A DNA stretch of 64,000 nucleotides from the human T2T-CHM13v2.0 reference genome, Homo sapiens: assembly GCF_009914755.1 (NCBI RefSeq), contig NC_060940.1; one strand, written 5' to 3'. A program made the position numbers and the translations under genes. Below the pieces are notes generated by a model, which saw only the letters and a program-made list of their open reading frames with translations, did not search any database and was not told the origin of the DNA. Position 1 is the stretch's first letter. Each line of letters opens with the position of its first letter. Of the stretch, positions 5,945 to 49,505 are shown in pieces.

Positions 5945-6097
5945 TTTTATAGCTATTTTGTAATATGCAATACCCTTCTATTAACCATTGTTACTGTACT
6001 GTGTAATAGAACACCAGAACTTACTTCTCCTATGTAATTGTAACTTTATACCTGTTAACCAACCTCTTTCTATTCCTCCCCCTTCAGTCTCTGGTAA

Positions 6098-6443
<346 letters not shown>

Positions 6444-7896: not shown

Positions 7897-8317
<421 letters not shown>

Positions 8318-11073: not shown

Positions 11074-11601
11074 TATTGGGAACAGGCCCCCAAATCTGGC
11101 CATAAACTGGTCCCAAAACTGACCATAAACAAAATCTCGGCAGCACTGTGACATGTTCGTGATGGCCATAACGCCCATGCTGAAGGTTGTGGGTTTACCG
11201 GAATGAGGGCAAGGAACACCTGGCCCACCCAGGGTGGAAAGCCGCTTAAAGGCATTCTTAAACCACAAACAGTAGCATGAGCCATCTGTGCCTTCAGGAC
11301 ATGCTCCTGCTACAGATAACTAGCCAGAGCCCATCCCTTTATTTTGGCCCATCCCTTTATTTTGGCCCATCCCTTTGTTTCCTGTAAGGAATACTTTTAG
11401 TTAGTCTATAATCTATAGAAACAATGCTTATCACTGGCTTGCTGTCAATAAATATGTGGGTAAATCTCTGTTCGGGGGCTCTTAGCTCTGAAGGCTGTGA
11501 GACCCCTGATTTCCCACTCCACATGCTATATTTCTGTGTGTGTGTCTTTAATTCCTCTAGCGCTGCTGGGTTAGGTCTCCACGACCGAGCTGGTCTCAGC
11601 A
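11074..11601 (+). mobile_element. MER9 (HERV-K HML-3) solo LTR
   Basis: Starts t(a)ttgggaacaggcccccaaatctggccataaac, has AATAAA near 11447, ends gagctggtctcagca; perfect 6-bp TSD ttggcc (11068-11073 / 11602-11607), typical of betaretroviral integration. Confidence 0.92.
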
Positions 11602-11906
11602 TTGGCCTACTTGATAGTACCCCATTAGTCCCTTAGACACTCTGTTTTTTTATTTTTGCTGTCCTGACCATATACTTTCAAATAACCTGTTATCAAGCTT
11701 GTTGGGTTATTTTTCTGCTAGATCAAGTCTGCTGTTGAACCCTCTAGTGAATCCTTAAATTTAGTTATTTTTCAGCTCCATACTTTGTGTTTTTATAGTT
11801 TTAATCTCTGTTCATAACCTCATTTTCTTCATGCATTTTTGTCTTCTTTTGTTAATTTGTCTGTGTTCTCCTTTAACTGGTTAAGCATCTTTAAAATAGA
11901 TATTTT

Positions 11907-12178
11907 GCTAGGCAGAGTGGTGTGTGCATGTAATCCCAGCTACTTTGGAGGCTAAGGCAGGAGGATCACTTGAGGCCAGCCTGGGCAGTATTGCAAGACC
12001 CTGCGTCTAAGATTTTTTTTTTTTTTTAATTAGTTGTTGTGGCATGTGCCTGTAGTCCCAGTGACTCAGGAGGCTGTGTCAGGAGGATTGCTTTACCCCA
12101 GGAATTTGAGGCTAGGCTACATTGAGCTATGATTGTACCAGTGTACTCCAGTCTGAGTGACAGAGTAAGACCCCATTT
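11907..12178 (+). mobile_element. AluJ-like SINE whose A-tail has been displaced to about 23951 by later L1 insertions
   Basis: Diverged Alu dimer ending gagtaagaccccattt with no adjacent A-tail. Confidence 0.8.
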
Positions 12179-13540
12179 TTTTCTGTTTCTTTTTTCTCTT
12201 AATATACTTTTGACTTTTATTTTAGATTCAAGGTGTACATGTGTTGGTTCATTACATGGGTATATTGCATTACACTGGTTTGATGTCTGAATGATCCCAT
12301 CATCCAGATAATGAGCATAGTGCCTAATAGATAGTTTTTCAGCCCTTGCTTCCTTCCTTTACTGCCCCCATGAGTCCCCATTGTCTCTTTTCCCCATCTT
12401 TATGTCCATATGTACCTAATGTTTAGTTCCCACTTATAAGAACATGGTCTTTGGTTTTCTGTTCCTGTGTGTTAATTTACTTAGGATAACAGCTGCATCC
12501 ATGTTGTTGCAAAGGACATGATTTTATTTTTTTTATGGCTGCATAGTATTCCACGGTGTATATGTACCACATTTTCTTTAGCCAGTCCACCATTGATGGG
12601 CATCTAGGCTGATTCCATGTTTTTGCTATTGTGAATAGTGCTGTGATGAACATATGAGTGCATGTGACTTTTTGGTAGAACAATTCATTTTCCATTGGGT
12701 ATATACTGAGTAATAGAATTGTTGGGTCAAATGGTAGTTCTGAGTTCTTTCAGAAATCTCCAAACTGTTTTTCACAGTGACTGAGCTAATTTAATTACAT
12801 TCCCATCATCAGTGTATAAGTATTATCTTTACTGCTGGCACTTGCCAGCATCTGTTTTTTGACTTTTCAGTAATCACTATTCTGAGTGGTGTAAATAGTA
12901 TCTCAGTGTGGTTTTGATTTGCATTTTTCTGATGGGTAGTGATGTGTAACATTTTTTCGTATGCTTGATGGCTGCTTGTATGTCTTCTTTTGAGAAGTGT
13001 CTGCTCTTGCCCTTTGCCCACTTTTTAATGGGGTTATTTTTTTTCTTGTTAATTTAAATTTCATATGGATTCTGGAATTAGGCCTTTGTCAGGTAGATAG
13101 TTTGTGAATATCTTCTCCTGTTCTGTAGGTTATTGATTCTTTTCACAGTTTCTTTTGCTGTGCAGAAACTCTTTAATTAGGTCCCATTTGTCAATTTTTG
13201 TTTTTGTTACAATTGCTTTTGAGAATTTAGCCACAAATTCTTTGCCAAAGTCAATGTCTAGAATGGTATTTGCCAGATTTTCTTCTAGTATTTTTATTAA
13301 GTTTCTGAATTTAAATCTTTAATCATCTTGAGTTAATTTTTATATATGGTGAAATGTAGGCGTCTATGTTCATTCGTTTGCATGTGGTTAGTCAGTCATC
13401 CTAGAACCATTTATTAAATAGGGAGTCCTTTCACTATTGCTTATTTTTGTTGACTTTGTGGAACATCAGATGATTGTAAGTGTGTGCCTCTATTTATTTC
13501 TGGGTGCTCTATTCTGTTCCATCGGTCTGTGTGTCCTTTT

Positions 13541-21274
<7,734 letters not shown>

Positions 21275-22123
21275 TGTGTGTATTTTTATGCCAGTACCAT
21301 GCTGTTTTGGTGACTGTAGGCTTATAGTATAGTTTGAAGTTGGATAATGTGAAGCCTTTGGTTTTGTTCTTTTGTTTAGGATTGCTTTGGCTATTTGGAC
21401 TCTTACTTAGTTCCATATGAATTTTAGAATAGTTTTTTTCTAATTCTGTGAAAAATGACGTTGGTAGTTTGATAGGAATAGTGTGGAATCTCTGGATTGC
21501 TTTGGGCAGTATGGCCATTTTAATGATGTTGATTCTTTGAGCATGGAATGTTTTTCCAGTTGTTTGTGTTGTCTATCATTTTTTTCAACAGTGTTTTATA
21601 GTTCCTCTTGTAGAGATCTTTAACCTCATTGGTTAGATCTATTCCTAGGTATTCGGTTTTTTCTTTGTGTGTGTGGCTATTGTAAATGGAATTATGTTCT
21701 TGATTTGGCACTCAGCTTGCATGTTATTGGTGTATAGAAATGCTACTGAGTTTTGTACTTTGATTTTGTATCTTAAAACTTTACTGGAGTTCCTTATCAG
21801 TTTCAGGAGCCTTTTGGCACAGTCTTTCCAGGTGTAGAATCATATGAGCAGAGATGATGTTACTTTCTTCTTTTCCTCTTTGGATGCCTTTTATTTCATT
21901 CTCTTGACTGATCTTTCTGGCTAGTACTTCCATTACTATGTTGAATAGAAGTGGTGAGAGAGGGTGTTCTTCTCTCATTCTTGTTTTTAAGGGGAATGCC
22001 TCCAGCTTTTGCTTTGTCAGTGTGTTGGCTGTGGGTTTCTCATAGATGGCTCTCATTTAGAGGTATGTTTCTTCAATGCTTAGTTTGTTGAGGGGTTTTT
22101 TTTTTATCATTAAGGGATATTAA

Positions 22124-22435
<312 letters not shown>

Positions 22436-23965
22436 CTTTTAAATTTTGATTCTATATGGTGAATCACATTTTTAAATTTCTATATGTTAGACTAACCTTG
22501 CATTCTAGGAATAAAGCCTAGCTAATTGTGGTAAATTAACTTTGAGTATGCTGCTGGATTTGGCTTGCTACTATTTTGTTGAAGATTTTTGTGTCTATGT
22601 TCATTAGAGATATTGTCCTGTAGTTTTATTTGTTCATTGTGTCTTTGCCAGATTTTGGTAACAGAGTGATGTTGGCCTCATAGAATGAAAGGGGAGGAGT
22701 CCCTTCTTATATTTTGGAATAGTTTAGTAGAACTGATACCAGCTCTTCCTTGTACTTCTGATATAATTCAGCTGTGAATCCATCTTGTCCAGGGCTTTTT
22801 TGGTTGGTAAATTTTTTATTACTGATTCAGTATCAGAACTTGATACTGGTTTGTTCAGGGTTTCAGTTTCTTCCCTATTCAATCTTTGGAAATTTTGTGT
22901 TTCTAGGAATTTATCCATTTCCTCTAGATGTTCTAATTTATGTGCATAGAAGTCTCTGAGAATCTTTTGTATACCTGTGGGATCGATTGCAATGTCCCCT
23001 TTGTTGTTTCTGATTGTGCTTATCTGGATCTTCTGTTTTTCTTTGTTAACCTAGCTAGTGGTCTATCAATCTCGTTTACCCTTTCAAAGAACCAACTTTT
23101 GGTTTTGCTGATGCTTTGTATGGAATTTGGGGTCTCAATTAATTCAGTTATCTGATTTTAGTTATTTCTATTCTTCTACATTTGTGCTCAGCTTATTTTT
23201 CTTTTTCTAGTTTCTTTACAAGTGATGTTATATCATTAATTTGAGATCTGACTTCTTGAAATAGGCATTTCGTGTTATAAGCTTCTTTTAATGTGGCTTT
23301 AGCTGTGTCCCAAAGATTTTGGTATGTGTTTTCTCTGTTTTCACTTATTTCAAAGAACTTTTAAATTTCTGCCTTGATATCATTGTTTACTCAAAAGTTG
23401 TTGAGGAGCCAGTTGTTTAATTTCTATGCATTTCTGTGGTTTTGAGAGATCTTCTTGGTATTGTTTTCTGTTTTTATTCTATTTTAGTCCAAAAGTATGA
23501 CTGGTATGATTTTTTTCTTTTTAATTTATTGAGACTTGCTTTCTGGCTGAGTGTATAGGGTCAATCTTCAAGTATGTCCTGTGTGCATATGAAGGATGTA
23601 TGTGTTCTGTGGTTGATGGGTGGAATATTCTGTAGATGTCTATTAGGTCCAGTTGGTCTATTCTGTAGATGCCTATTAGGTTATGTGGAATTGATGTCTA
23701 AAATTTCTTTGTGAATTTTCTGCCTCAGGGATCTAATGATGTCCATGGGATGTTGAAATACCTCACTGTTATTATGTGACTAATTCTTTTCTCAGGACTA
23801 GAAGCACTTGTTTTATGAATCTCGGTGCTCCGAAGTTTGGTGCATAGGTGTTTAGCATGTGTAGGTATTCTTGTTGAATTGAACCCTTTATCATTATGGA
23901 ATACATCCTTGTGCTTTTGTATGGTTGTTGGGTTAATATTCTCATTTCTTAAAGAAGTCACAAAA

Positions 23966-24240
23966 TGCCAGGTTCAGTTGCTGGTTTCATCCCAGCACTT
24001 TGAGAATCTGAGGCTATAGTATTCCTTGAGGCCAGGAATTTTTGACCAGCCTAAATGACCTAGCAAGACCCTGGTTGTACAAAGAACTTAAAAAATTATT
24101 CAGATGTGATGGTGTGTTTTTGTAGTCATAGCCACTTGGGGAAGTGAGGTAGGGTGACTGCTTTAGGCCAGGAATTCGAGGTTCCAGTGAGCTATGATTG
24201 TACTCTGGCCTGGTGACAGTGCAAGACCTTGTCTATAAGA
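23966..24240 (+). mobile_element. AluJ-like SINE
   Basis: Diverged dimer (tcccagcactttgagaatctgagg...gtgagctatgattg...gcaagaccttgtct). Confidence 0.8.
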
Positions 24241-25143
24241 CAAAGATAGATATTTTAAATTATTTTAAAATTAGTTAATAGATTTCTACTTCTCTAGCTT
24301 CACTTGGATATTAATATGTTAGTTAATAGATTTCTGCTTCTTTAGATTCACTTTCATTTTGGTCCCTTTATTGAGCCATGTGTTTTGGTTACTTTGATGT
24401 CTTGTGATTTTGTTGATATTTTGATCAAGTAAGAGACAGCTACCTATTCCATCTATTATGGAATGAATTTGTACATGTGAAAACTGATACCCATCAGGTA
24501 CTCTAGTCATTCTGGGAGATTCTTCATACTGTTGTCAGGATGTTTCTTCTCTGGACTACTGTGTGTATTTTCCTATTAAAAAGGTTTGCTTTTTTCTTTT
24601 TCTCTTAGGAGCCTTTAATCTCCCCCTTTGTTGAGTGTCATAGGCACTACTGTCTCTCTGTTCTTGTAACAAGCATTCATGTTTGTTCTCAGTTGACCCG
24701 ACATATCATTTCAACTATATCACCATTTTCTTCAGCACCACATATTAAAGGAAGCAATGGCCAGTCTTTAGATAGCCCCAGAATAACCCAGAACTTTGGA
24801 CATATGTTTTGCTCCTTTTATTTTTCTTTCCTGAGAGCGAAACAGAATGCGAAAAATTTTTGTGTAACTGCACTGTGCTGTGGTGCACAAATACAACAAA
24901 CTTTCTTCCTTCTATATGTGACCATTCTTGGCTTTGTGTTCACCTAGGTGCTGCAAACTCACCTGGCTTTAGTCACCCTATTACATTTAAGTTCATATAT
25001 CAATTGAGAAAACAAAGGGGCCTCAAGTTTTTGATTCAACTATCATGGTGTTCTCAACGTGATATAATTTGTGTATTAGATTTATAAAGTATTTTCACCT
25101 GAATTTAGTAATTGGAATTTTGAAAACTTTTGGTATCTTTCAG

Positions 25144-25278
25144 ATATCTTTTCTCATGATACTCAAGGCCTCTTAAGAAAGAAGCTTATAGAAGCATCAT
25201 TCCAAAAAGTGATATTGGATGGATATGGGAGCTGTGGCCCTCAGAATTTAAACTTAAGGAAAGAGTGGGAAAGTGAGG
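25144..25278 (+). CDS. ZNF720: Internal coding exon of the KRAB-only protein ZNF720/KRBOX5 (DIFSHDTQGLLRKKLIEASFQKVILDGYGSCGPQNLNLRKEWESEG)
   Basis: Acceptor tatctttcag|AT (phase 1, as expected after a KRAB-B exon); 135-nt open frame; consensus donor GAGG|GTAAGT at 25279. The peptide matches my recollection of the ZNF720 C-terminus. Without splicing the frame runs to TAA at 25662-25664. Confidence 0.85.
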
Positions 25279-25645
25279 GTAAGTGTGAAGGTCACAATGG
25301 ATATTATGATGGACATACAAAATGTAAGACAACTACCTATAACAAAAACCTCACTGTTACAGGAGGTCAAAAACATGAAAAAACTCAATTTATGTCAGTT
25401 GCTTTTTCTAAACCATGTGTTTCTGTAAGTAAGTGTCAACATCAATTTTTGAAACTTACCTTTTCTTTTAAAGGAAATTTGGATAATCCGAATAGTGACT
25501 TAGTCCATGTTTCAAATAATCATTTAAACCAATTAAAATATAGAACTGGAGTAAATGTTCAGTCAAATATTTCTGAAAAGGAGAGATTTAAAAACGAGGA
25601 GGTGATTTCTAAATATGATCAATTTGATGGATCTTTGTTAAAAGT

Positions 25646-27097
25646 TTGTTTCACCAACAAATAACACCTCGTTCTGCCTGTGATCAATATAGAAAGGTCT
25701 TCATTCATTCATCATTGCTTAATCAATGTCAAGGAATAGATAATTTGGGAAAATATCACACACATAATAAAACTTTGACAGCCTTTAGGCAGGACTATAC
25801 CCTAAATAATTACCAGTATATTTGTGTTGCAGAGAAAAATCAGTACAATAAATCTGATACAACATTAAGCCAAGGCATAAGCCCCAGAAGACATCAGAAA
25901 ACTCATTTTCTACATAACCATTGCAAACGTAAAAAATGTGAGAAAGCCTTTCATGAATGCACCAACCATGTCCATCAGAGTATCTTTATTCAAGAGAAGT
26001 CTGCCAAATGTAATAAGTGTATAGAAACTTTTATCCAGTCATCAAAACATACTCAGCCTCAGAGAATCCATATTGGAGAAAAGTCACACAGATGTAATAA
26101 TGGTGAGAAAATCCTTAGTAAATTGTCAAGTCTAAGAAAACATAAGATAATCCATAATGAAGAGAAACCTTACAAATGTAAAGAATGTGACAAAGCCTTT
26201 AACCATCGTTCACACCTTACTCAACATCAAATAATTCATACTGGAGAGAAACCATACAAATGTAAAGAATGTGGCAAAGCCTTCAATTCTAGTTCATATT
26301 TTACTAGACATCAGAGAATTCACACTGGAGAAAAACTTTACAAATGTAAAGCGTGTAGCAAATGTTTTACTCATTCTTCAAATCTTCTTGTGCATCAGAG
26401 AATTCATACTGGAGAGAAACCTTACAAATGTAAAGAATGTGGTAAATCATTTAAAGTGTCTTCAGCCCTTACTCAGCATGAGAGAATTCATACTGGAGAG
26501 AAACCCTATAAATGTAAGGAATGCAGCAAAGCCTTTAACTGTAGGTCGTACCTAACTAAACATCAGAGAATTCATACCGGAGAAAAACTTTACAAATGTA
26601 AATCATGTAGCAAATCTTTTTCTCGTTCCTCAAGTCTTATTGTCCACCAGAGAATTCATACTGGAGAAAAACCCTATAAATGCAAAGAATGTGGCAAAGC
26701 CTTTAATTGTAGTTCACGCCTTACTCAACATCAAAGAATTCATACCGGAGAGAAACCCTACATATGTAAAGAATGTGGCAAAGCCTTTAACTGTAGTTCA
26801 TCCCTTACTAAACATCAGAGAATTCATACTGGAGTAAAACTTTACAAATGTAAAGCATGTAGCAAATCTTTCTCTCATTCCTCATGTCTTTCTGTGCATC
26901 AGATAACTCATACTGGAATGAAACCATATATATGTAAGGATTGTGGCATCTCCTTTAACCGGTCTTCAAACCTTAGACGACATCAGATGATTCATACTGG
27001 AGAGAAACCCTACAAATGTAAAGAATGTGGCAAATTATTTAATCGATGCTCAACCCTTACTCGACATAAAAGTATTCATACTAGAGAATTTCTATAG
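25646..27097 (+). pseudogene. ZNF720: C2H2 zinc-finger array frame-shifted from the KRAB frame: about 6 degenerate plus 11 intact fingers
   Basis: 483-codon open frame. 11 CxxC-x12-HxxxH fingers at exact 84-bp spacing (first Cys codon 26177, last finger starts 27017) with TGEKPY-type linkers. The frame is -1 relative to the exon start, and the first ATG is only in the finger 9/10 linker. Confidence 0.9.
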
Positions 27098-28510
27098 TTG
27101 TAGTAAATGTGAAAAGAGTTTTATCCAAAATTTAGAACTTAAAAATCACCATAGAGTTTATAGGGAAACCGACTTTACAGATTGAATAAATGGGAGGAAG
27201 TATTTAATCAGAACTCAAATCTGAATGTGTCAGGACTTACACAAAAAAGGACTAAAGCACAGATCCCCACTTTAAAATTAAATAAGAGTATTTGTTATGG
27301 AGGATTACTCTAAAGCCAAAGCAGTTACTTATTTTGTTATGTGTTTCAAATGAGCAAAAGCATTGATGTTTGGACAAGTAATTATTCAGTGAGCATGTTA
27401 TTTGTATTGAAAACATTTGAAATTTGTATAAAGCAAATCATAATTTAATTCTCAGATTAGTTGTTATACCTTAATGCCTAGTGTTTATATAAAAACATAT
27501 AGTCTATTTTTTCTGCATCAGAGCTGTAAGAGGTCGTTCTATAGTAGGTGAACATCATTAATATCAACTTATTTTCATGGAAATTTAATGGCAAATGTAA
27601 AATACATGAAGAAAATCTAAAAGAGGCTCTTTGTGTTTGAATCATTAAACAGTAATATGTGTAAACATATAGTACATATTTAGGGCATTAGTATTCTATA
27701 CTAAAGTAAAAGAGGAATATTCTGAATTTATTTATTACATCAATTGCTCCTTAAGTAGAAAAACACTGGTCAGTTATTTAAAATACTGGCATACCTTTAT
27801 AGTACAATGAAGTAGTAATCTTGAATATTATTTGATGTGTTAAAAATAAAAACATCTTCACAGATATCAGAGAAAAGTGAAAACTCATATCTGAAAGATT
27901 ATAAATATACTTTATATCAATTTTCCAGAGAACTTAAACTTCTAATAATATTGGTAATATTCTCATGGTTACTATTTTATATTCTTTCCTGCTTTTTGTA
28001 GCTACTGGTGTACTATGACAGTTATAATAAAGATTATATGGGGGTATACTTAAATGCCATACTTTTAAAATCCTGAATCATTGTTTATAAAGTTTTATTC
28101 AATATTTTTCTTTGCACATGCCCTTTTTCAGTCCAATTGAACACTTAGAGATTTTTCTTTGCTTTCACTTGCATTAAATGGAATATACAGATGTACTAAG
28201 ATAGAAAGAAAAAGGTGAAAGAGAACTATACAGGCAGAAATGCATGTGTGTGTACCTGTCTTCAAATGGAAAAGAAAATGATGGATCACAACAGGAAACT
28301 GGAGAACTGTTGATTTATTACAGTTCTCAAATTAGAAACCTCCCAAATTCTTAAAGCTAAATTAGCTTTTCATTGCACACTGAATTTTTCTCTGATAAAT
28401 CTAATGTCTTCTGGGTTCAGACTTTATCCCGTACAAATCCTTTTTTCTTGCCTGTGATTCATGTGAGAAGAATTATATAATTTTCTTATTTCAAAGCTTA
28501 TAAACTATTA

Positions 28511-28855
<345 letters not shown>

Positions 28856-29173
28856 TTATCTGTCATCTACCTATAGACATAACCCTACTGAGGAGGATGG
28901 GGATAAAAGGTCTGCATCTAAGTCACTTTGAAAAACAGTATTTTGATTGAATGCTGTAAGACTACACAAATGCTGTATTCTACTGAGTAATATTTTATTT
29001 TCCTACAAGGATATGCATTAGCAATTCTGAAACAGTTTTACATGTTATTATATAATATATGGAGGCTGTTTCTCAGTGTAGTTCACAAAAGTTAAATGGT
29101 GAATGCTAGCATGAATCTTGTGGTCCTAGCCCAAAGTTGGAAATATCAGGATGAACCCATGACTAATACATCT

Positions 29174-29220
29174 GGATGGATGGATGGATGAATAGATATA
29201 AAGATAGGTAGGTAGGTAGG

Positions 29221-29273
<53 letters not shown>

Positions 29274-29375
29274 GAAGCGATGTCTAAGATATCTGGAAGG
29301 ATGGATGGATGGATGGATGGATAGTTAGATAGATAGATAGATAGATAGATACATAGATAGACGATTCAGAGATAG
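29174..29375. repeat. Compound tetranucleotide microsatellite (GGAT)n/(AGGT)n/(AGAT)n
   Basis: 13 perfect AGAT units at 29222-29273, plus GGAT and AGGT runs. Confidence 0.97.
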
Positions 29376-29868
29376 ATAATGTTCCAAACTCTTGAGGGCC
29401 AAGAACTGGTGACATCTTGTATCAACACATCTAGGTCTACAATCTTGGTTTCTAAACAACATTCATTAAAAGGACCCAAGGGTTGAAGTTAGAAAATACA
29501 AGTTGAGCTAGAGTATCTTGTAAAGCCACAAAGAAAAAAGTGCTTAATAAAAATGATGGGGACTTTTCAAAGGGAGCCAACCTGAAAGACCTCCCAATGG
29601 TCCAAGCTCCAACAATATGAGCAATAAGTTATGATAGCTTTGGATTATGGCCCACAGAATAAAGTAATACTCATCTCTACTGTGTGAATAAAAGAGATTA
29701 AATAAGGAAAGAAGGAATGAAATCTACAATATTTAAAATACAGATCAATGTAGTTGGATAATGCAAAATAAATCAACACTAGAACATCACAGTAATAATT
29801 ACCATAGGGAAGATTCCCCGAGGAATTCAAAAATTTCAGGAAAAACTTAAACACTAAAGAGTGTATTT

Positions 29869-30172
<304 letters not shown>

Positions 30173-30734
30173 AAAGTGTATTTGCATATTTTAAGTATCT
30201 ACCATCTAATATTTATTAATACAATTTTTTCTTAATTTCTTAGACTTGTGACTATTTGAAACAAATTATAACACTGTATTGTAGGATTTATAATTTGTAG
30301 TTGTAAAATTTATAACACATGGAATAAGAAGATAAATGGAACTGTTCTGTAGCAAATTTTTCATGTTTTATATTTAAGACAGTATAGTATTAACTCTAAA
30401 AGTATGGTGGATATGTTAAAGATTCATATTGTATTCCCTGCAGCAACCACTAAAAAATGCAAAGAAGTGTAATGTAAATGCTAAAAAAGGAGATAATTAT
30501 AAAATATTTATTTGCACAATATTTATGTATCTTTTAGTCATAATAGCCCAAAACAGGAAACAACCAAAATGTCCATTAATAAGAAAATGAACTAATTGTA
30601 TAGCTTTTAGAACAAAATACAGCTCAGGAATATGAAAAACCAAGCACACATCCTGGATAAAATTCATAAACCTGCTCAATGAGAGAAAAGTTGGACACAA
30701 AATTGTACTTTATGTATTTTGTATTTTATTCCAG

Positions 30735-30754
30735 GCAAAATAATCCTATGGTGA
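30735..30754 (+). CDS. ZNF720: Coding part of the terminal exon of ZNF720 (G|GC AAA ATA ATC CTA TGG TGA = GKIILW*)
   Basis: Strong acceptor tttatgtattttgtattttattccag|G. Joining 25278 to 30735 gives ...EWESEGKIILW*, the C-terminus I recall for ZNF720. Confidence 0.8.
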
Positions 30755-31246
30755 AAAAAAATCAACAAGATAATCTCTGCATGAGAAAAAGGACCAAAGA
30801 CAAGTGAATTTTCTGAGGGTGATGAAAGTGTTGCTTCGAAAAGGGGTGAAGTTTATATGGGTCTATTTATTTGTCTAACATGTACAGTTAAGGTTTATGC
30901 CTTGCAATGTATGTACATCTTCACAAAAAAAATCTTAAAAAAATTAAATGGGTGGGGGTAGGGAAAGGGTTGAAGTATAGATGAAGCAGAAGTGGTACAT
31001 GATTAGTAGTTGAAGCTGGGGGCAGGTCTATATATTTTATTTTTATGTCTTTAATAGCATTTGTATAAATGTACAATATTCGTTTACAATGTTAGCTCAG
31101 GATCTTGTTTACCTTTGGACAGGGAGGGAGGGAGAAATTTATTTTCTGGGTAGGAGTAAAGCTGGTTCTATTCCTCAGTTATGTAAATTATCTGTTATAA
31201 TCCAAAAAGCTTTACATGAATGTTTCTGTATGTAATGTGGTATATC

Positions 31247-31260
31247 AATAAAAAATTAAA
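31247..31260 (+). terminator. Probable polyadenylation signals (AATAAA, ATTAAA) of the terminal exon
   Basis: AATAAA at 31247-31252 and ATTAAA at 31255-31260, about 500 nt after the stop codon, preceded by TGTA motifs. Confidence 0.55.
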
Positions 31261-31751
31261 TATTACATATTTGCACCAGAATCCTAACTCACTATCTCAG
31301 AATGTTAGCAGCATTTTCTTTTGTTGTAAAGTGGAACACAATCTCATGGCATTAGCAGATGGGTTTGAATATTCTAAAGTATCAACGTCCTAATCTCATG
31401 GGCACCTCTTGGGTCTTTCCATTTTTGCCTTCATTTGCTAAGTGGCATGCTTTTGATTTTTTGAGATGAAACTTTTTCCCAGCAAAGTCTTTTTCCCACA
31501 GTGATGCTCTGAAAGCCAGGACACCTAGCACAGGACCCTGGGCATAGTATGCACTCAGTACATGTGGAGCATGTTGATCAGGAACAAAAGGAGTAGCAAA
31601 GGTCAGTTCCTGCAAAGGTGAGTAGATAATACAGGTATGACTGAAAGGCTGCAACTCAGGAGTAAACATTTTACATTCATTCAAGAGACAATTTGCAACT
31701 AGTACACCAAAAAATTTTGGCTGAAAGCAGTACTTTGGGGGCTTGGCTAAA

Positions 31752-31902
31752 CTCTGTAATCACCTGGAGAACTTTAAACAATACTGATGTCTGGGCCCCA
31801 CTCCAGGGATTTTGATTTTATTGGTCTGTTGCAGTTTGGGTTTTGGGAATTGTAGGGCCTCCGCATGTGACTGTAATGTGGAGCCAGGGGTGAGACCCAC
31901 TG
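31752..31902. mobile_element. MER5A-like hAT-Charlie DNA transposon relic
   Basis: aatcacctggagaactttaaacaatactgatgtctgggccccactccag...gtgactgtaatgtggagccaggggtgagacccactg. Confidence 0.75.
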
Positions 31903-34900
31903 TTTCAGGGTGAGGGATGCATTAGCTGTGTGTGATTTCCATGTGTGCTGCAAGTATTTGCTCTGTGAACATTCCTGCATTTGGAGTCTTGGAAATTGCA
32001 TAAGGAAGAAGTGTCTCTCTACAGATCTATTTTTTATGTCACTTGCTTTTAGAGTAAGAGGTTATTTCAGGCACAGTAATTTGATTTAATCTGTTTTCAA
32101 ATACTAAATCTGAAAATACTAAAATGAAAAGAATTTGCAAATGTGAGAATTTGCAAACATGTGGAGTGTGTTCTTATGTGCTTTCCAGTTTCTCTGATGA
32201 TAAGAAATGAGTAATGTTGGGCCTTGATTTCCTAAACTCAGCCCTCAGTCACTTTCTCAAATTATTTGAAGACCTTCCAAGTTGCTTCAGAAGCATTGTC
32301 CAAAGGAGATTATTCCCAGTAGTGAAGAATAATAGATGGATGAGAATGTCTAAGGAATCCTACTTCTGTCGCAGAAGTGGCACTCTCCAGAACCTCAAGG
32401 GCCCATGGAGTTCATGGGCTTTGGAGTCAGGCAGAGTTGACCCTGAGTCCCATCCCAGCCTCTTAATAGACTAGTTACTTGACTTGGAACAGTTATGCAA
32501 GACAAAGCACAATGATACTGATTGCAGTAATGGGAACAATTCATTCCTCTCTGTATCCATGCCCTTTGCAATGCATGTTTTTAGCTACTCCCATGGAGGG
32601 AAAGATTCTGTTTTTCCAGTCCTTGGATCTGACTGGCCTTATTTGCTGTGGCCAATTCATACTTACTGTTCTAGTGAAACAATTAGGCATGTTTTGCTCC
32701 TCATTCTAGACTTTAATTAAAATTAAAATTTTATGATATTTTATTTCTACTGTATTTTGCTGTATTCATTCTGCTCAGTATTCTAGTTCACTGGTCCTCT
32801 TATCTCTGTTTAATTTAGTGGTGAACCTATACATTGTCTGGTAACTTAATTTTGTATTTTCGTATTCTATTGGGCTGTCGTTCAAATGTGGCTTTTAAAC
32901 TTCAGTTACTTGTTCTTTCTACAAAAATAAACATTGATTTTCTACTTTTCATTGTATTCATTTAAACATTTTAAATATAATTCCAATGTGCAAAACTGTT
33001 GCATATTTTTTCTTCAGAAATTTCTTCCTTGTTATGTCACTCAGTTTTTCCTTTGGTTCTCACTTTTGGGAGATACCATATTTGAGGTGTCTATAGTCAT
33101 ATTATTTCCAGTGTTTCTTTCATTTTCCCTGGGAACAAGATGAAAAACACACATAGATTTGACATCCTTGTGATGAGTCAGTATCTGAAGGGAGCATTTT
33201 TTTTCTTAGTTTGACTACTCTGGATCATTATCTTGATTTACTTCTGCTCCTGTGAAGTTCTTATATTTTCCTTTAACTCCATTCAGCAACTTAAAGGTTC
33301 TTGTAACTTCTTGAGGATTTTTTTAGTTGTCTATATTAAAATATTTAATAATATATAGCATTTTTCCTAAAAGCACAAATATCCACAGTGTACATGAGTA
33401 AAATATTTCAATAGACATTGTGCAGCATACAGCAGAATCTTATGAGATATCCCGTTTCTTCATTCAGAACATTCCTCTCGAATATACCATGTGGTAATAG
33501 TAATTTGTAAACAGTAGTTTTTTGATACTTAAAATTTTGTTTTTTGCACATTTCCGAAACGATATACTTCATGCCAATGAACAGAACTGATCTAGATACA
33601 GCCAGAATTACTGTTTCTCTATAATATTAAAATAATATTGATAAAATTATGTACCTGAATTCAGGTCTTTTGGCTTTAATCACTCTGCTTCCTTTTTAGC
33701 ATGTTTCTGAATTTACAAAAGAATCTGTTTGGATTTCTACTTGTTCTATAAACTAATTAAAAGAGACAAGGGAAATTTGTGTGTGGCTAGATAGTACTTG
33801 TTGGTTACAATTTATAATTTCTAGTGTCATTTTAGTTGCCTTGAAAATAGTGACCTCTTGAATTTCTGCTATCATAAAATTCATGTCATTGTTAGGCCTA
33901 CACTTTGCCATTCAGTTTTTTTCACCTCTGGTACTAGAATATAATGTGTATCTTCTCTTTACTGGTGAAAAATGCTACACATTTGTCTCTACCTAATTAG
34001 TGAAACTATATTTAGCATGTTTATGTTCATTTAGTTACTGTATACCAAAACATTTTATTTCTGTGATGGTCTTAATTTTACCTAACGGGATTGTAAATGG
34101 CTTAGTTTGTCATTTTTCATGAATTTCTGTATTATACATTTCAGGTATTAAGTCCACGTGTAATTGGCTTAGAATAATCCCTAACACATTGTAGGGGCTA
34201 ATACATACTAACCACTCTGCTTCCTCAAATTTCTATTTGTTCATACCATTCTGCATTTACTAAATTATTTTGTGTATGTTATTCACATTTATTTTTCTGT
34301 CCTCTCTAAATATTTATTAAAAAGAGAAGGTAGGCTAATGTGTCATGTTGATAAAATTCAATGTCAAATGGTATGCTTCATTGTTTTTCGTTAGATATAA
34401 TAGCTTTTTTGACTCAATGAAGTTTTAGTCATATTCTCAACCCTAAAACAGAGGAAGCTTTTCTATAGCTGATTGAAATTTATCATTTAAATTTAAAAAA
34501 TTATGGGTAAAGAATTTTACCCTTTAGCTTATGCTAGTAGTGTTGCAGGGTCTTTACTCATATTCCCCTTTTTGTTTTCTGAGCATATTTTTGAGAGTGG
34601 AATGGACACATTCTACTATGGCCTGCCCTTGGGGGTTATACGGGAGGCCTGTGGAATGTTGGATGTTCCATGTGTGAGAAAATTGTTGAAATTGTGAGCT
34701 GGCATAAGCCAGACCATTATCAGTTTTAATTTTTGTGAGCTGCCCCATAAATGCAAAAGCTAACAGAAGAGGTTTAGTAACATATCGGATGGAGTCTCCA
34801 GGAAGAGCATGTGCGCTAATTAGCTGAGAATTGGTATCAATGGATACAAGTACATATCTTAGTTTTCCACATTCGGGGATGTGTGTAACATCTGTTTGCC

Positions 34901-35965
34901 ATAACTGATTAGGTTCTAGTTTTCTAGGGTTAACACCTGTTGAAGGAGAGGACATGCCTGTGAGCTGGCAATCTGGGCATTGCAGGGTAATATGTTTAGC
35001 TAGTCTTTGAGTAAGTTGAAATTGTTTAGTTAACTTCCTCCAACTTTGGTGGAACAATTGATGTGATTTGGTGGCTTGGTCAAGCAGTGACATCATGACT
35101 TGCAGGTCATGACTGATTATTGCCATAAACCAGTGGGTCAGGCAGTGAGCTGTGGGCTCGAATATGTGTGATAAAAATAGGATGTGTACGTTGATCCAGC
35201 AATTGCTGAAGTCAAAGAAAATGTGCACACAGGGTGGGCTTGAGAGTAGACTTAATGAGGGCTGTTTCAAGGTTCTGCAATAGAGTAAGCAGAGTCAGTA
35301 ACAATATTCATGGGCTGAGCAGAAAAGGTCTCCAGGGCCACTATTATGGCTGCAACCTCAGCTCTCTGAGTGCTAGTAAATCCAGAACGAGTTAGGGAAT
35401 TATATGGTCTCCACCACACAGCCGCTTTTCCATTTTTACCAGAGCTGTCAGTAAAAAGCGTTAAAGTGTTAGTTATGGGGGGAGTGAACTACTTTTGTAG
35501 GCACAATTACTGGAGTATTAGATAAGAATTGAAGTAGTTTGTCAGCAGGAAGGGCATGCTCTATATGACCTGCATAATCAGAGAGTGCTATCTGAAGATC
35601 TAGAGATAGGGGCAATACTCCCTCGAATTGCTTTTTACTCAAAGGAATTCTTATGACATCAGGGTCATAACCTAGCAACTGATTGCGTCATCTATGGCAT
35701 GTATAGATGACTTTACTAACTAGCTGGATATAGGGAGATAGTGTTTTAGTCCCAGTATGTGAGCAAAAAATCCATTCTAGGAAGCATAGCCCTGGAGCTA
35801 TCCTGTTGGGGAATGTTTAGTAGGAAAAACAAACAATTTAACTGAATGTTTTGGGTCTATGCAATCTAGTTGCCTCTGAGAAATAGCTTGCTCTATTTCC
35901 TCAATTTCCCTTTTTGCTGCAGGAGTTAAATACCTGGGAGAGTCTAGGGCTGTATTGCCCTTTAG

Positions 35966-36544
<579 letters not shown>

Positions 36545-38777
36545 TAATAACAGTGGCCATTATTAGAAAGGGGTCTGCAGAGTGACCCCCCCATTGGGCT
36601 AATAGGTCCCATCCCCAAAGATTAACAGGGATGGGCATGACTAGAGGCTGTATAACTGCCTTTCTTCCCTCCAAATTGCAACATGTTAGGGGGCGTGTGC
36701 TCTACTTGGCTGTGTGCACTTCCCCGATGATGACAATTTTTTGTTTCTGAGTGACCCAAGCCCACGTTTCTGGCCAGTTTTGATCACTAATGATTGAAAT
36801 ATCCACCCCTGTGTCCAATAAGCCAGTAAAATTTTTATTTCCAATTTTTAAGGTAATCATGGGTCTCTAATCAGTGATTAATTGGTTCTCATATACTCCT
36901 GTGGCTCCCATGCTTCCAAAACTTCCCTTTCCCCTTTCCTTTCCCTGGCTGTTGGGGACCCAGTATGGTAAGAGTAGTAACTGAGCTATCTTTGATCCAG
37001 GAGGAAGAATATGCAGACCTTTACATTCCATCATAACTAATATCTCACCTTGATAATCACTATCAATTACCCTGGTGAGCACATTAATTCCTTTACTGGA
37101 TAGGCTTGATCGCCCTAGGACTACTCCCACTGTTCCCAGAGGCAGTGGGCCCCAGATCTTGGTTGCAACCCTTTTAGGGTCTTCTCCTTTTAGCACTAAT
37201 TCGTTGGGGCAGAGTAAGTCCAGTCCTGTGCTCCCAGTGGTAGCTGCTCTGAGAGAGAGGACTGTGGGCTTTCCATTGACCGAGGAAAGCTGCTGGCATT
37301 AAAATTTGGACCTGCATTGATTTGCCCAATGTTTCCCCTTTTTACATTGGGGGCATATAAAAGGGGGTTCTTTTCCTGAGTTACCTTGGTCTCTATTATT
37401 GGGGCATTCCCTCTTAATATGACCTGGCTTTCCACATAGAAAACAATTTGGGTTTTTCTCCCTTTTCACTTTAGGAGGCCTTAATGCCATAGCCAATATT
37501 TTGGCTTTGTGTGTTTCAGTCCCCACCAGTTTATATGCTTGTATAAGTTCCCTGACTGTGGCTGCCTTTCCTCTGATTGCCTGCATTGCTTGCTGGCAGT
37601 CGACGTTAGCATTTTCATAAGCCAGTTGCAGCAATAAGATATCAGCGGCCTGGGCATGACTAATTTATCTCTTAATTGCCTGGGTTAACTGATTGATAAA
37701 TTTAACAAATGGCTCCTGAGGCCCTTGTGGAACAATTATGAAAGATCCCTGTTGAACACTGCTTTCAGGAATTTGGTCTCAAGCCCTGAGAGCACACAAA
37801 GACATTTGTGCATAGGCCTGGGTATCAAAATGTAGTTGTACATTGGCATGGGGACCCCTACCCTGGAGCATAGCAGTTGTTATGTCTTGCCTGGCCAACT
37901 GATTCTGGTTGGCTTGTTGTTCACATAAGTCATCATATTCTGCCTTCCAGAGGAGGTATTGGCTGGGCTCTAAAGGTTTTTTAGCTAGCACTGACCAGTC
38001 CCATGGACTCATACAGAAGTTGTCTGCTATGGCTTCAATTCGTCCTTTCATAAATGGGCTAGCAGCTCCATTTTCTTTAGTGCTTTTTCTTATCTCTTTA
38101 TAAGCGTCAAAAGAAATGGGTTCAGTTACTTGATTGCCTGTTGATCTTGCATTACTGGGCAGGTTAAGAGCTCCCCTTCTAATGTCACTTGCCCAAGACA
38201 GGGTCCCATAGCTGTAGTGTATCCCTTGTCTTTTTCCAATTTATTGGAGGAGGGGTCTCAGGAAAAACCTCTGTTTCCTCTTTGGTATTTTTGCCTGTTA
38301 ATGGTGGGGCTGAGGGAGAAGGAGGTGGTGGTAAGGTAGGTGACAGTTCCTCCTCCCTTACCTTTTAGGCTCTTCTGTGTAGAGCAGGACCAAAGCAGCC
38401 CTAATTAAAGCACATAATGTTAGAGATGTTACTGGGACCCGTTGCCCTTGTTCATGATGTTGTTTAAGACTTTTACCCACTTGTTCCCAGAGCTGTATGT
38501 CTAGCATACCTTCTTCCGGGAACCATGGGTTATGGGAAACAACAGGTTGCGTTAGGTCCCTTAATTGAGCCTGCAAAACTGAGGCTTCACTAGCTTTAAG
38601 CAGCTGTTTCAATACTTTTATATACTGTTGCTGTTGAGCTGATAACTGTTGTCGCATGATGAAACCGTAGCCTAAACAATTCCCTCGAACTTGGAAATCC
38701 CAAGGGGGCACCAATGACTTACTGCGCAATCTCTTCACCTTCATTTTTGAGGTTTCTGTCATGATCCATTGTAGCGT

Positions 38778-38795
38778 TCCTCACATGGGGCACAA
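38778..38795 (-). promoter_or_regulatory. Retroviral primer-binding site complementary to tRNA-Met
   Basis: Minus strand TTGTGCCCCATGTGAGGA, 2 nt after the LTR CA; 16/18 match to TGGTGCCCCGTGTGAGGA. A Met PBS is characteristic of HML-5. Confidence 0.85.
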
Positions 38796-38797
38796 CC

Positions 38798-39285
38798 TGC
38801 CGAGTTTGTCCTTCAGACTGGCTGAGCGACGGATGAAAGAAGTATGCTGACACAGGTATTTTGCCTGACAGCGCAACTAGGGGAACTATACTCCTTAGAA
38901 CCACGATGAGAGTGCAGCTCAGCCAAGAGTGCTTATTGCCCTATAAGCCAGTGATGCTCACATTTATTTAGCACAGATTTAATGACAAAGGCTTGGAGCA
39001 AACACAATTTGTGGGTAATAAACATTGTCAAACCCACAAGTAGAGAGCAATCCTGTGCACGAATTATCAAAGGTTGGTTTCTGGAGACAGGAGTAAACAA
39101 ATTTATCTAGACAAGTTCATTTGCATTCCCTTGTTATCTACCCTTTGCTCTCAGGCTCCAGAGAAGGGAATTTGGCTGCCTTCAGCCAAATTTTATTTAG
39201 AAGCTTTTGCAAAATCTCCCAGCCTTCCAAGAAGGTTTTCATCTTTCCTTATAATTTTCCCCACCACCCTGACCAATCTTCTACA
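38798..39285 (-). mobile_element. 5' LTR of the HML-5 provirus (LTR22 family)
   Basis: 488 bp; minus strand starts TGTAGAAGATTGGTCAGGGTGGTGGG and ends ...CAAACTCGGCA, directly followed by the PBS. Confidence 0.9.
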
Positions 39286-42171
39286 CCACAGGGGGTAGGG
39301 GAAGGAAGGAAGGAATTAAGGGCACCAGAGAGAGAAAGTAAAAGGTAAAAGACAATATTTTAGTAAGGAAGTGACATTCCATAGCTTCAGTTGTATTCTT
39401 TTCCCAAGAGGTGAGTCGCTAACCACTTACTGGTTACACTAGGATGTGTATACTGGGAAATGGGGATCTTCGTGAACCATCATGGAGGCTGCTTACCACA
39501 GAGGCCAAGGTGAGACAAAAGGACCTGATTCTAAATAGAATGAGAAGACGTTGGAAGGTCTATAGCCTCAGGATGACATCGTCAAAATTTTATTTAATTT
39601 CAGTTCCCTTATGGTGGATCTTGGGAAATGAGACCAGGAGGGGAAGTGACTTTCCCAACATGCAACTTATAAAACCCAGGCATGTTTGAGTTGTTCCACC
39701 CATGTAATTCTTCCATCTCTTTTTATATTAGTTACATGTGATACCAACTCACGACCATTGTATTATTTCACATGCTCCTGATGAGTTCCCTTAGAATTAG
39801 GTAACTCCTGATGAGTTCTCTTAGAATTGGGTAACTAGCATGATCTCTATTGTGCAGGTTGGGAGACTGTGGAGCCCCCAAGAAGCACAATGACATATCT
39901 AGGATGACATAACTCATAAATTTATTAAAAGGAGGTTCTGACCTAGCTCTCCTCAACCTGTCATCCTGGCTTCACTGAGTCTTCTCAGAATCTGGGGGAG
40001 AGGGGTCTGTGTTTGCATAATTGTGTGCAGGTAATAAAATAACATGGAGCAGGAAGATGAGCAGTCAGCATCCTAGAGGAGCCTATGGGTAGGTCTTAGT
40101 AAAAGGATGAAACCTTGAAGAAGTGACCTCACTTCCTTGGTGAAAGACCCCAACAGAACTTAGAACTTTGGTAACCAGGCACTCATATTTCTGAAGACAG
40201 TCTCCTATCAAGTTTAGTTAGCCAGAGACTGTCAAGAGAGCAAGATGTTCTGCTGTATCCCAACTTTTCAAAGCTCTTGCTTCAGTGAGAGCCTTTTCTA
40301 AAGATGCAGAATTTGGCTTAGCTCTCAATCCCCAACCTCCATGCTTCAGGTCATTTGGCAAGAGGTACCCCAAAGTAACCACAGGGTAGCCCTTTCCAGA
40401 CCAATCCTCACTTGAGATCCCATCTGGACAACCTCATACCCTCTCCTCATCACCATATATGTGTGTAGGGGTGGGGAGCAGAAGGTGAGGTGAGGCTCTT
40501 CCTGGGAAGGAGCAGGTTGTTAGGTGCTGGAACTCTACTGCGTTCATACCCCAGGTCATGGCTGGCAGGATGGGAAGGTGAGTGTTGGGGATTAAGCTTA
40601 TTTACTCAGATTTGATTTTGAGACCTCAAGCTGTCATGTGGCTTTTGCCCTGGCTGGAGGTTCATGGAGATGCTCCTCTGTGCCTAATCTAGAATGCAGA
40701 ACTTTAATCAGAGTATCTCCTTGTGGGAACAGCCAAGCAGGCTACTAACACCTCTCAGTCAATTTGCTGGGTACTCTATTTGCAGAATTGCATGCAGGAG
40801 ATCAGTGAAGAGCTGTTTGATAGGTCCAATTGTATCTCCTTGGAAGAAAGATACTTGCGCCACATCACCAACCATGGTCACTGCTGGGCAAGCATGAGAG
40901 TGAGCACAAAAGGTTCATCACAGACAAGGACCTGAGATGACCAGGGTGGGCCCAGGGCCTAAACCTGAATATACAGACTTCCCTGGGCTCTGTCCTATAC
41001 TTTTGCCAATTTACTGGCCGATAGTCCCATTCCCAAAGGAAACTGGCCTCCATTAGTCCCCAGTGGCAACTTGGCTAGGTGCAAAGTCCCTGTTCACATA
41101 CTTCAGAAATATCAGAGAAAACACTTTTGCATTGTTTTTACTTTAAAATAGGCCATGAGTATCTTTGCATGTTGTTGCTGTTTTTATTGTTTTCACAACT
41201 TGCCCCAAGTATTCCATGTAGCAGGCAGCTCCACTATTCTTCCAGACCTCCAACTTAACCATCACTCTAAATTGGGTGGTTTATATAGGAAAGGGAGGGG
41301 TTTAGGCTATTCTAACATTTGTCTATAACTTTTAATCTTATAAAACATATCATCATAACCCTGCCAGGTCAGAACCTGTGCCCTCACTTGTCTTCATAAT
41401 ATTCCATGAGGGAGGCTGTTTCCCACAGTGGTGCAGCCTTTCCATGCTGGTGAAGATTGACATGATTCAATTCTGTGGTCATCTCAGATACACCGTAGTG
41501 GACATCCTGTGTGTGTTTTAATAGACTATCAGTTTGCTGGGGCTGCCATACCACATTACCAGATTATCACATGCTGGGTGGCTTTAGAAACAAAAATGTA
41601 CTCAATTATGGAGACTAAAAATCCTGTATCAAAGTGTCAGCTAGGGTGATTTGTCTGACTCAGTGGCTTCCATTTTTATATTTTCATGTTTTATATTTAA
41701 AACATTTTAAATTTGGTGAAGTATAGTTTTCCCTTTTTGATTGTCCTTTGGTGTAAAATCTAAAATATCATTGCCTAATGCAAGGTTGCAAAACTTTAAT
41801 ATTCCTCCTAAGAATTTTTTAGTTTCAGCACTTACATTTAAGTGTATGATCTTTTTAACTTTTGTTTGTTGGTTGATTGGCTTGTTTTTTGTTTTTTGAT
41901 GTGTGATTTGAGTTAGGAGTGCAGTGTCATTATTTTGCAGGCCAATATCCAATTTTCCAGTATCATTTGTTGAAAAGACTTTTCTTTCCTCAGAAATTTC
42001 TTGGCCCCTTTGTTAAAATCACTTTACCATAAATGCAAGTTTATTAATGAAACTTCCTATTTCATTGTTCTATATGAATCTATCCCTGTGCTACCACCAC
42101 AGGCTTATTTTTACTTTGTAGTGAATAAAAATTAGTTTTATTGAGTTTAAGTTATAGAATTTTGTTATTCC

Positions 42172-42471
<300 letters not shown>

Positions 42472-42808
42472 GAATTTTGTTATTCCTTTTAAGGATTGTG
42501 TTTATGTCTTTGGTTTACTTTGCATATATATGTGGATTTTGAGAAAGCTTGTCAATTTCTATAAAAACTATGGAAATATAGGAAAATTTGAGAAACTTTG
42601 TCAATTTCTATAAAAACTGTAGAAGCTATAGTTTAAATTTGAAGAGACTCCATTTAATTTGTAGGTCAATTTCTGGGGTATTGTATTCTTTACAATATTA
42701 TCATTTAATATTGGATTTTTTTCATTTATTCTGCTCTTGGATTTATTTTAGCATAAGATAATCTTCCAGTGTAAAGTCCTTGCATTTCTTTCGTTAAATT
42801 TATCCATG

Positions 42809-49505
<6,697 letters not shown>

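What the first reader, a model, noticed from the sequence alone, without database searches (positions are those of the whole stretch)
25628..27097. Pristine 11-finger array orphaned by what looks like a single-base deletion
Seen: the KRAB frame closes at TAA 25662-25664 and the finger frame opens after TGA 25625-25627, confining the frameshift to 25628-25661. Adding one A to the AAAA run at 25640-25643 (TTA AAA AGT TTG TTT CAC) fuses both frames into one continuous ORF from 25144 to 27097. The 483 downstream codons have no stop and all 44 Cys/His ligands of the 11 fingers are intact. Inference: either a very recent, possibly lineage-specific or polymorphic gene inactivation, or continued selection on a still-translated array.
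Basis: partly seen in the sequence, partly recalled or inferred. Interest (0 to 1): 0.7.

Follow-up and report, generated by a model that had tools for sequence, protein, structure and literature searches.

The report
Splicing bypasses an ape gene frameshift
A one-letter deletion, which humans appear to share with gorillas, cuts the gene KRABD5 (ZNF720) off from its 11 DNA-binding zinc fingers, but a recorded splice skips the damaged stretch in frame, so cells likely still make a full gene-silencing protein that the main human KRAB zinc-finger survey never tested.

Summary
The anatomy is confirmed: stops at 25625-27 and 25662-64, a 489-codon stop-free frame, and 11 fingers with 44 of 44 ligands. 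(1) The lost base is in 25631-25636, most likely a C at 25633, not an A of the A4 run (baboon protein, paralogue, ZNF267). (2) It is not very recent. A gorilla model ends in the same frameshifted tail, while baboon is intact and two other monkey models read the ancestral frame. (3) The array need not be orphaned. A GT-AG intron at 25279-25832 removes the deletion and joins KRAB to all 11 fingers in frame (541 aa). A partial human protein record matches this junction 129 of 129, and RefSeq lists an exon starting at 25833. The fingers differ from baboon at 2 of 301 codons, with 1 change on the human side against about 6 expected if neutral since the gorilla split (P about 0.016; 0.04-0.4 under lower local rates). 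Best reading (0.55): a previously optional in-frame exitron became obligatory and keeps a minor full-length KRAB zinc-finger isoform under selection. No full-length transcript or protein was seen.

The parts
25144..25278 (+). 5' part of the ancestral last exon, used as an internal exon in the selected KRAB-only transcript and in the frame-restoring isoform; donor AGG|GTAAGT, phase 1. It follows the KRAB-A (127 nt) and KRAB-B (96 nt, ends in phase 1) exons, which lie before the window at -5987..-5861 and -5354..-5259
   Evidence: hub table; PF01352 83.5 bits on P0011; KRAB-only models of orangutan, green monkey, marmoset and capuchin leave the ancestral frame at about this point
25279..25832 (+). 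GT-AG intron inside the ancestral coding exon: 554 nt now, 555 nt (185 codons) before the deletion; contains both the deletion and the premature stop
   Evidence: junction recorded in human protein record P0011 (129 of 129 residues); both splice sites also present in the paralogue
25631..25636 (+). site of the 1-bp deletion (most likely one C of an ancestral CC at 25633)
25662..25664 (+). premature TAA reached when the intron is retained (248-aa KRAB + spacer, no fingers)
   Evidence: same tail in gorilla P0004
25817..25817 (+). competing acceptor 16 nt upstream; out of frame with all three donors tested
   Evidence: hub table
25833..27097 (+). frame-restoring last exon, coding part: about 115 codons of degenerate fingers, then the array and stop
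   Evidence: hub table (exon 25833-31265)
25847..25852 (+). AATAAA inside the coding frame, 9-11 nt before the end of partial record P0011; a possible early polyadenylation site
26177..27079 (+). 11 intact C2H2 fingers; positions -1,2,3,6: HSHQ SSYR HSNV VSAQ CSYK RSSV CSRQ CSSK HSCV RSNR RSTR
   Evidence: 299 of 301 codons give the same residue as in baboon
30735..30754 (+). alternative last exon, coding part, of the selected 126-aa KRAB-only isoform
   Evidence: hub table

Best explanation
KRABD5 (ZNF720/KRBOX5) is a primate KRAB zinc-finger gene with a 1-bp deletion in its last exon, likely dating from before the human-gorilla split, and a recorded in-frame splice (25278 to 25833) skips that deletion and likely yields a minor 541-aa KRAB plus 11-finger repressor that would keep the array under purifying selection. 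Shown: the deletion, the stop when the intron is retained, the frame arithmetic, the junction in one partial record, both splice sites in the paralogue, and near-identity of the fingers to baboon. Inferred: that the 555-nt intron was an optional in-frame exitron before the deletion and became obligatory after it; that junction-bearing transcripts run on through the fingers; that the protein is made, recruits TRIM28 and binds DNA (by family knowledge, probably a simian-age transposable element). The other products (126-aa selected isoform, 248-aa intron-retained form) are KRAB-only.
For: Of 13 exon combinations built from annotated borders, 2 give all 11 fingers: 25278 to 25833 (541 aa) and KRAB-B to 25833 (496 aa). 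Human NCBI record P0011 (ZNF720, partial; cluster of 10) equals the first product over 129 of 129 residues, 10 of them at and past the junction. RefSeq lists exons 25144-25278 and 25833-31265 (hub table). Both splice sites are unchanged in the paralogue, so they probably predate the deletion. Human and baboon differ at 2 of 301 finger codons against 29 of 343 spacer codons (Fisher P = 1e-6). One finger change is human-side, against 6.1 expected if neutral since the gorilla split (P = 0.016; joint with no stop or frameshift, 0.0035). The KRAB-less paralogue shows what decay looks like here: 10 of 168 codons changed in fingers 1-6, three of them Cys ligands, plus 2 stops and a frameshift elsewhere. 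ZNF267, the closest intact relative, lacks about 96 residues of the same spacer and binds THE1C (PMC10547255 Table S2), so a short spacer can work.
Against: No full-length human KRAB plus finger record was seen: none as its own cluster (2 hits each; it could hide in the 13-member baboon cluster, which I could not list). PMC10547255 found no suitable transcript with both domains. P0011 is a partial predicted translation and ends 9-11 nt after an AATAAA (25847), so it could be an early-polyadenylated dead end. The hub table does not say which donor the 25833 exon joins; with donor 25323 the junction itself is a stop. The acceptor is modest (11 of 18 pyrimidines) and competes with an out-of-frame AG at 25817. 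The constraint test is small and rate-dependent: P = 0.04-0.10 with a locally scaled rate. Synonymous differences to the paralogue in fingers 1-6 are also low (3 against 9.6 expected, P = 0.014), and if the local rate is a third of the flanks, P rises to 0.4. The locus was picked for looking pristine. The human KRAB-A has G where orangutan, baboon, green monkey and marmoset have R. The divergence values used (1.75%, 1.37%, 3.1%) are recalled; the source paper was not held.
Confidence: 0.55

Rival explanations
1. The array has been dead since the deletion (at least 10.6 Ma). The gene survives only as a KRAB-only protein through the older donor at 25278, the 25833 junction is splicing noise, and the fingers look pristine because little time has passed at a low local mutation rate.
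For: The selected RefSeq isoform is KRAB-only, 126 aa (hub table). KRAB-only models exist across simians. An intact frame has P = 0.18-0.37 and intact ligands P = 0.42-0.61 under neutrality. Synonymous sites are also quiet (3 against 9.6). 'No transcript' in PMC10547255. P0011 stops next to an AATAAA.
Against: One amino-acid change against 4-6 expected. The paralogue's fingers 1-6 took 11 non-synonymous changes against 13.7 expected, so this sequence is not intrinsically slow to mutate. An in-frame bypass is recorded.
Confidence: 0.33
2. The stretch is conserved as DNA or RNA (for example a binding site on the zinc-finger exon or a 3' UTR element of the KRAB-only transcripts), or has been homogenised by gene conversion, and is not selected as protein.
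For: Deficit of synonymous differences in fingers 1-6; the array lies in the 3' UTR of annotated long last exons (hub table); patches where baboon matches the human paralogue rather than macaque suggest conversion between the copies.
Against: Conversion from the broken paralogue would import damage. Fingers 7-10 match baboon at 112 of 112 codons while differing from the paralogue at 32.
Confidence: 0.06
3. A very recent, human-specific or polymorphic inactivation.
For: The pyrimidine run may be slip-prone: a chr7 homologue is also one base short at this spot, so independent losses are possible. The gorilla evidence is one protein model, not DNA; it also lacks one residue elsewhere.
Against: The gorilla model reads the frameshifted tail residue for residue, while comparable macaque and snub-nosed monkey models read the ancestral frame at the same spot. 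This argues against the tail being forced by the gene-model pipeline.
Confidence: 0.03
4. The array is translated without splicing, by ribosomal frameshifting near 25633-25661 or by re-initiation.
For: The two frames overlap over 25628-25661.
Against: The finger frame has no ATG before 26918, after finger 9. No recoding signal was tested, and an ordinary splice suffices.
Confidence: 0.03

Closest known systems
ZNF267 (neighbouring KRAB zinc-finger gene, chr16; locus L004)
   Same: Closest intact human relative (74-77% DNA identity in the last exon, 83% around the KRAB exons); same exon layout; same age class, 43.2 My (PMC10547255 Table S1); short spacer.
   Different: Unbroken last exon (678-codon frame); the 25278-type donor is not conserved; its first two array fingers are degenerate and its DNA-contact residues differ, so its THE1C target cannot be transferred.
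Exitrons (Marquez et al. 2015, PMC4484396; passages and section 11 read)
   Same: An alternatively spliced internal region of a coding exon with canonical sites; 555 nt (a multiple of 3) and stop-free in the ancestral state; exitrons are reported in five KRAB zinc-finger genes.
   Different: In human the logic is reversed: retention now gives the stop and splicing restores the frame, so today's intron fails the exitron definition. It removes spacer, not fingers. The five genes are not named in what I read, and the supplement was not available.
KRAB-only genes and 'no transcript' KRAB zinc-finger genes (KRBOX4, ZNF738, ZNF781 and others; 15 rows in PMC10547255 Table S2)
   Same: KRAB and a finger array are neighbours in the genome, with no annotated transcript holding both; the selected isoform is KRAB-only.
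   Different: Here the array is intact and an in-frame junction to it is on record. The other 14 genes were not examined.
Baboon ZNF720 isoform X4 (P0001, 726 aa)
   Same: Orthologue with KRAB, spacer and the same 11 fingers (299 of 301 residues).
   Different: Continuous last exon, no frameshift; 185 residues longer than the predicted human spliced form.

Membership tests
KRAB zinc-finger protein (KZFP) | N-terminal KRAB-A (+B) box on separate exons | tested here: met
   PF01352 83.5 bits; exons with GT-AG borders; E = 3e-21 to the ZNF93 chain 7z36_D
KRAB zinc-finger protein (KZFP) | Tandem C2H2 array with TGEKPY-type linkers in one exon | tested here: met
   11 fingers, 44 of 44 ligands
KRAB zinc-finger protein (KZFP) | KRAB and fingers joined in one reading frame in a transcript | tested here: inconclusive
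   In-frame junction recorded in partial P0011 and computed to give 541 aa; no full-length record seen; 'no transcript' in PMC10547255
KRAB zinc-finger protein (KZFP) | Protein made, TRIM28 recruited, sequence-specific DNA binding | not testable with these tools
   No ChIP data set, 0 internal and 0 external, in PMC10547255 Table S2
Exitron (EIx3), ancestral state | Internal part of a coding exon, GT-AG, stop-free, length a multiple of 3 | tested here: met
   554 + 1 = 555 nt; the baboon protein reads through the whole stretch; both sites in the paralogue. Splicing of it in a monkey was not observed.
Exitron, present human state | Retention introduces no stop codon | tested here: not met
   Retention ends at TAA 25662; definition from PMC4484396. 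It works like an exitron but is not one now.
Pseudogenised (orphan) finger array | Neutral decay: dN/dS near 1, ligand losses, stops | tested here: inconclusive
   1 change against 6.1 expected (P 0.016), but P 0.04-0.4 under lower local rates; no ape DNA available
Human-specific gene loss | Lesion absent from other great apes | tested here: not met
   The gorilla model has the frameshifted tail; chimpanzee, orangutan and gibbon not seen

The most novel reading that the evidence does not exclude
Humans carry an overlooked, functional 541-aa KRAB zinc-finger repressor inside a gene named and annotated as KRAB-only. A frameshift fixed in an ape ancestor was tolerated because a pre-existing in-frame exitron already removed that stretch. 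The deletion made the exitron obligatory, turning one splice choice (25833 against 25817, 30735 or retention) into a switch between a DNA-binding repressor and finger-less KRAB proteins, and kept an array 99% identical to baboon's with an unknown target.
Probability: 0.4. Interest if true: 0.7.

Novelty: new variant of a known kind. Interest (0 to 1): 0.5.

Why it matters
[quoted passage not shown] This finding gives a specific open reading frame to clone and ChIP. It would be a clean, datable case of a frameshift neutralised by splicing that was already available, which gene-loss screens would score as a loss. It also means variants in 25833-27094, now treated as intronic or UTR of the selected transcript, could be coding. 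If the array is dead, the locus is an ordinary ape gene truncation.

Tried and rejected
A4/A5 site: rejected. Human-specific timing: rejected on the gorilla model. Re-initiation: no ATG before 26918. Acceptor 25817, donor 25323 and the 4904/4960-5020 cassette exons: no fingers in 11 of 13 combinations. One search aligned the paralogue in the wrong orientation and was discarded; one search is the correct one. The 50%-cluster protein search with 25634-26176 returned no orthologue among the best 150 (highest identity 44%). The ESM Atlas gave only generic zinc-finger clusters. Polarising spacer changes with the paralogue proved unreliable: three 'human-branch' calls (25146, 25482, 25488) are shared with other monkeys, so branch counts are used only for the fingers. 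A KRAB exon for the paralogue was not found in 70 kb around it or genome-wide (best other hit is ZNF267's, 83%). Literature: ZNF720 40 papers (listing; passages read in PMC9808595, PMC11331120, PMC7769010), KRBOX5 2, KRABD5 0; nothing I saw describes the frameshift or the bypass. Combined-term searches gave 1, 1, 0, 0, 1, 18 and 2 papers. Nowick 2011 (PMC3126818): abstract, passages and 8 small supplements, no ZNF720 in the supplements. Yoo 2025 (PMC12058530): passages, no ZNF720 or KRBOX5; supplement unreadable. Most subscription papers, and the supplements of PMC4484396 and PMC12058530, were not seen and could bear on novelty.

Full report
Observation. The upstream frame, which continues the KRAB exons, stops at TAA 25662-25664. 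A second frame opens after TGA 25625-25627 and runs 489 codons to 27097, with 11 C2H2 fingers at 26177-27079 and 44 of 44 zinc ligands. Pfam confirms the array and finds nothing in 25146-25661, which is spacer. The KRAB exons lie upstream of the window, at -5987..-5861 and -5354..-5259. The gene is KRABD5 by the hub's table; ZNF720 and KRBOX5 are the same gene. The finger frame has no ATG before 26918.

Where the base was lost. A baboon protein of 726 aa (P0001) has KRAB, spacer and the same 11 fingers in one frame. Placing an unknown base at each of 38 positions gives 18 of 18 agreement with baboon only after 25631-25636, and 16 of 18 in the A4 run. The human genome holds an inverted duplicate about 150 kb away, 94% identical here. 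It has the same A4 run and one more C at 25632/33, and ZNF267 has TCC at that place too. The lesion is most likely loss of one C at 25633.

When. The gorilla model G3SH29 (P0004) ends with the same frameshifted tail as human. Comparable pig-tailed macaque and snub-nosed monkey models end in the ancestral frame at that spot, which is a control against a tail forced by the annotation pipeline. The deletion therefore most likely arose after the split from Old World monkeys and before the African ape split, dated 10.6-10.9 Ma (PMC12058530, passages). I saw no ape DNA and no chimpanzee, orangutan or gibbon read-through of this site. The 28 members of the gorilla cluster and the 13 of the baboon cluster could not be listed. 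A chr7 homologue is also one base short there, so independent slips cannot be excluded.

The bypass. I built 13 exon combinations from the annotated borders. The selected transcript gives 126 aa and retention gives 248 aa, both without fingers. Two combinations give all 11 fingers: donor 25278 to acceptor 25833 (541 aa) and KRAB-B direct to 25833 (496 aa). The first is on record: human NCBI protein P0011 ('zinc finger protein 720, partial') matches it at 129 of 129 residues, across the junction. RefSeq lists an exon 25833-31265 (hub table), though the table does not say which donor it joins or whether it is called coding. The intron 25279-25832 is GT-AG and 554 nt long. Before the deletion it was 555 nt, 185 whole codons, so it would have been a frame-preserving exitron as defined in PMC4484396 (passages). 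Both splice sites are unchanged in the paralogue, and KRAB-only models of orangutan, green monkey, marmoset and capuchin leave the ancestral frame at about the same donor. I infer that the sites are older than the lesion. ZNF267 lacks about 96 residues of the same spacer and binds THE1C (PMC10547255 Table S2), so a shortened spacer can work. Against: P0011 is a partial predicted translation that ends 9-11 nt after an AATAAA at 25847; no full-length human record appeared; and the acceptor is modest and competes with an out-of-frame AG at 25817.

Is the array under selection? Human and baboon differ at 2 of 301 finger codons and 29 of 343 spacer codons (P = 1e-6). One finger change is human-side (R to S at 27071). 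I calibrated a neutral model on 32,038 aligned non-coding bases between the gene region and its duplicate (7.2% divergence). With a human branch of 0.875% (half of a recalled 1.75% human-gorilla divergence), 6.1 non-synonymous changes are expected in the fingers. P(1 or fewer) is 0.016, and 0.0035 jointly with no stop or frameshift in 25835-27094. The duplicate, which has no KRAB exons, decayed about as the model predicts: 11 non-synonymous changes in fingers 1-6 against 13.7 expected, three lost cysteines, two stops and a frameshift. Results against: scaling to that local rate gives P = 0.04-0.10. Synonymous differences in fingers 1-6 are also low (3 against 9.6; P = 0.014), and a local rate one third of the flanks would give P = 0.4. 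The locus was also chosen for looking pristine. The signal is suggestive, not decisive.

Mechanism. Most likely (0.55) the deletion fell inside an optional in-frame exitron. It killed the unspliced 726-aa form, left the spliced 541-aa form untouched and so was tolerated. The gene would now make KRAB-only proteins by default and a full repressor through the minor splice. By family knowledge (introduction of PMC10547255) that protein would recruit TRIM28 to a specific DNA target, often a transposable element; the target is unknown. The main rival (0.33) is that the array is dead and simply young. DNA- or RNA-level constraint (0.06), recent independent loss (0.03) and recoding (0.03) are less likely.

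What is known. The array's existence is known: PMC10547255 lists ZNF720 as a protein-coding KRAB zinc-finger gene aged 43.2 My with status 'no transcript', meaning no suitable transcript with both domains, and with no ChIP data (supplement rows and passages). Exitrons in KRAB zinc-finger genes are known. Nothing I saw in ten full-text searches (mostly listings) describes this frameshift, its age or the bypass. RefSeq or GENCODE may already carry a predicted full-length model that I could not see.

Verdict. New variant of a known kind; interest 0.5.

Noticed in passing
G000:C16:31974000-32016738 (- strand; L002, L009-L012, L017), matching window -1649..45592: An inverted duplicate of at least 47 kb, 88-93% identical by block, carrying the last exon but no KRAB exons; broken by a 1-bp deletion (window-equivalent 25446) and stops (25811, 26984). 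Probably the annotated ZNF720P1/KRBOX5P1 (name recalled).
   Followed up: partly
L002, window-equivalent 26681-27016: The paralogue's fingers 7-10 differ from KRABD5 at 17% of bases, against 3% for fingers 1-6, and its fingers 8-10 resemble copies of fingers 5-7, suggesting conversion or duplication within the array.
   Followed up: no
KRAB-A exon, window -5987..-5861: Human has G where orangutan, baboon, green monkey and marmoset have R, just after the MLENY motif; effect on repression unknown.
   Followed up: no
P0013, P0015 (macaque records): These differ from the baboon protein and macaque P0005 in the first spacer exon, and P0015 carries part of KRAB-B, hinting at a second copy in macaques that kept KRAB sequence.
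   Followed up: no
window 25146, 25482-25490: Baboon matches the human paralogue rather than human or other monkeys at these residues, possibly gene conversion between the copies.
   Followed up: no
L003 (G000:C7:66501875-66502609): A 75%-identical homologue is also one base short in the same pyrimidine run and keeps the GTAAGT donor.
   Followed up: no
G000 C13, C14, C15, C21, C22 (L005, L007, L008 and others): Two copies each of a 71-73% identical homologue of the spacer's 5' part near the starts of the five acrocentric chromosomes.
   Followed up: no
window 4904-5020 and 4960-5020: Both annotated cassette exons put a stop right after KRAB-B (82 and 83 aa), so they are poison-type or KRAB-only exons.
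   Followed up: partly
window 29192-29361: An (ATAG)n microsatellite of about 42 copies in the long 3' UTR or last intron.
   Followed up: no
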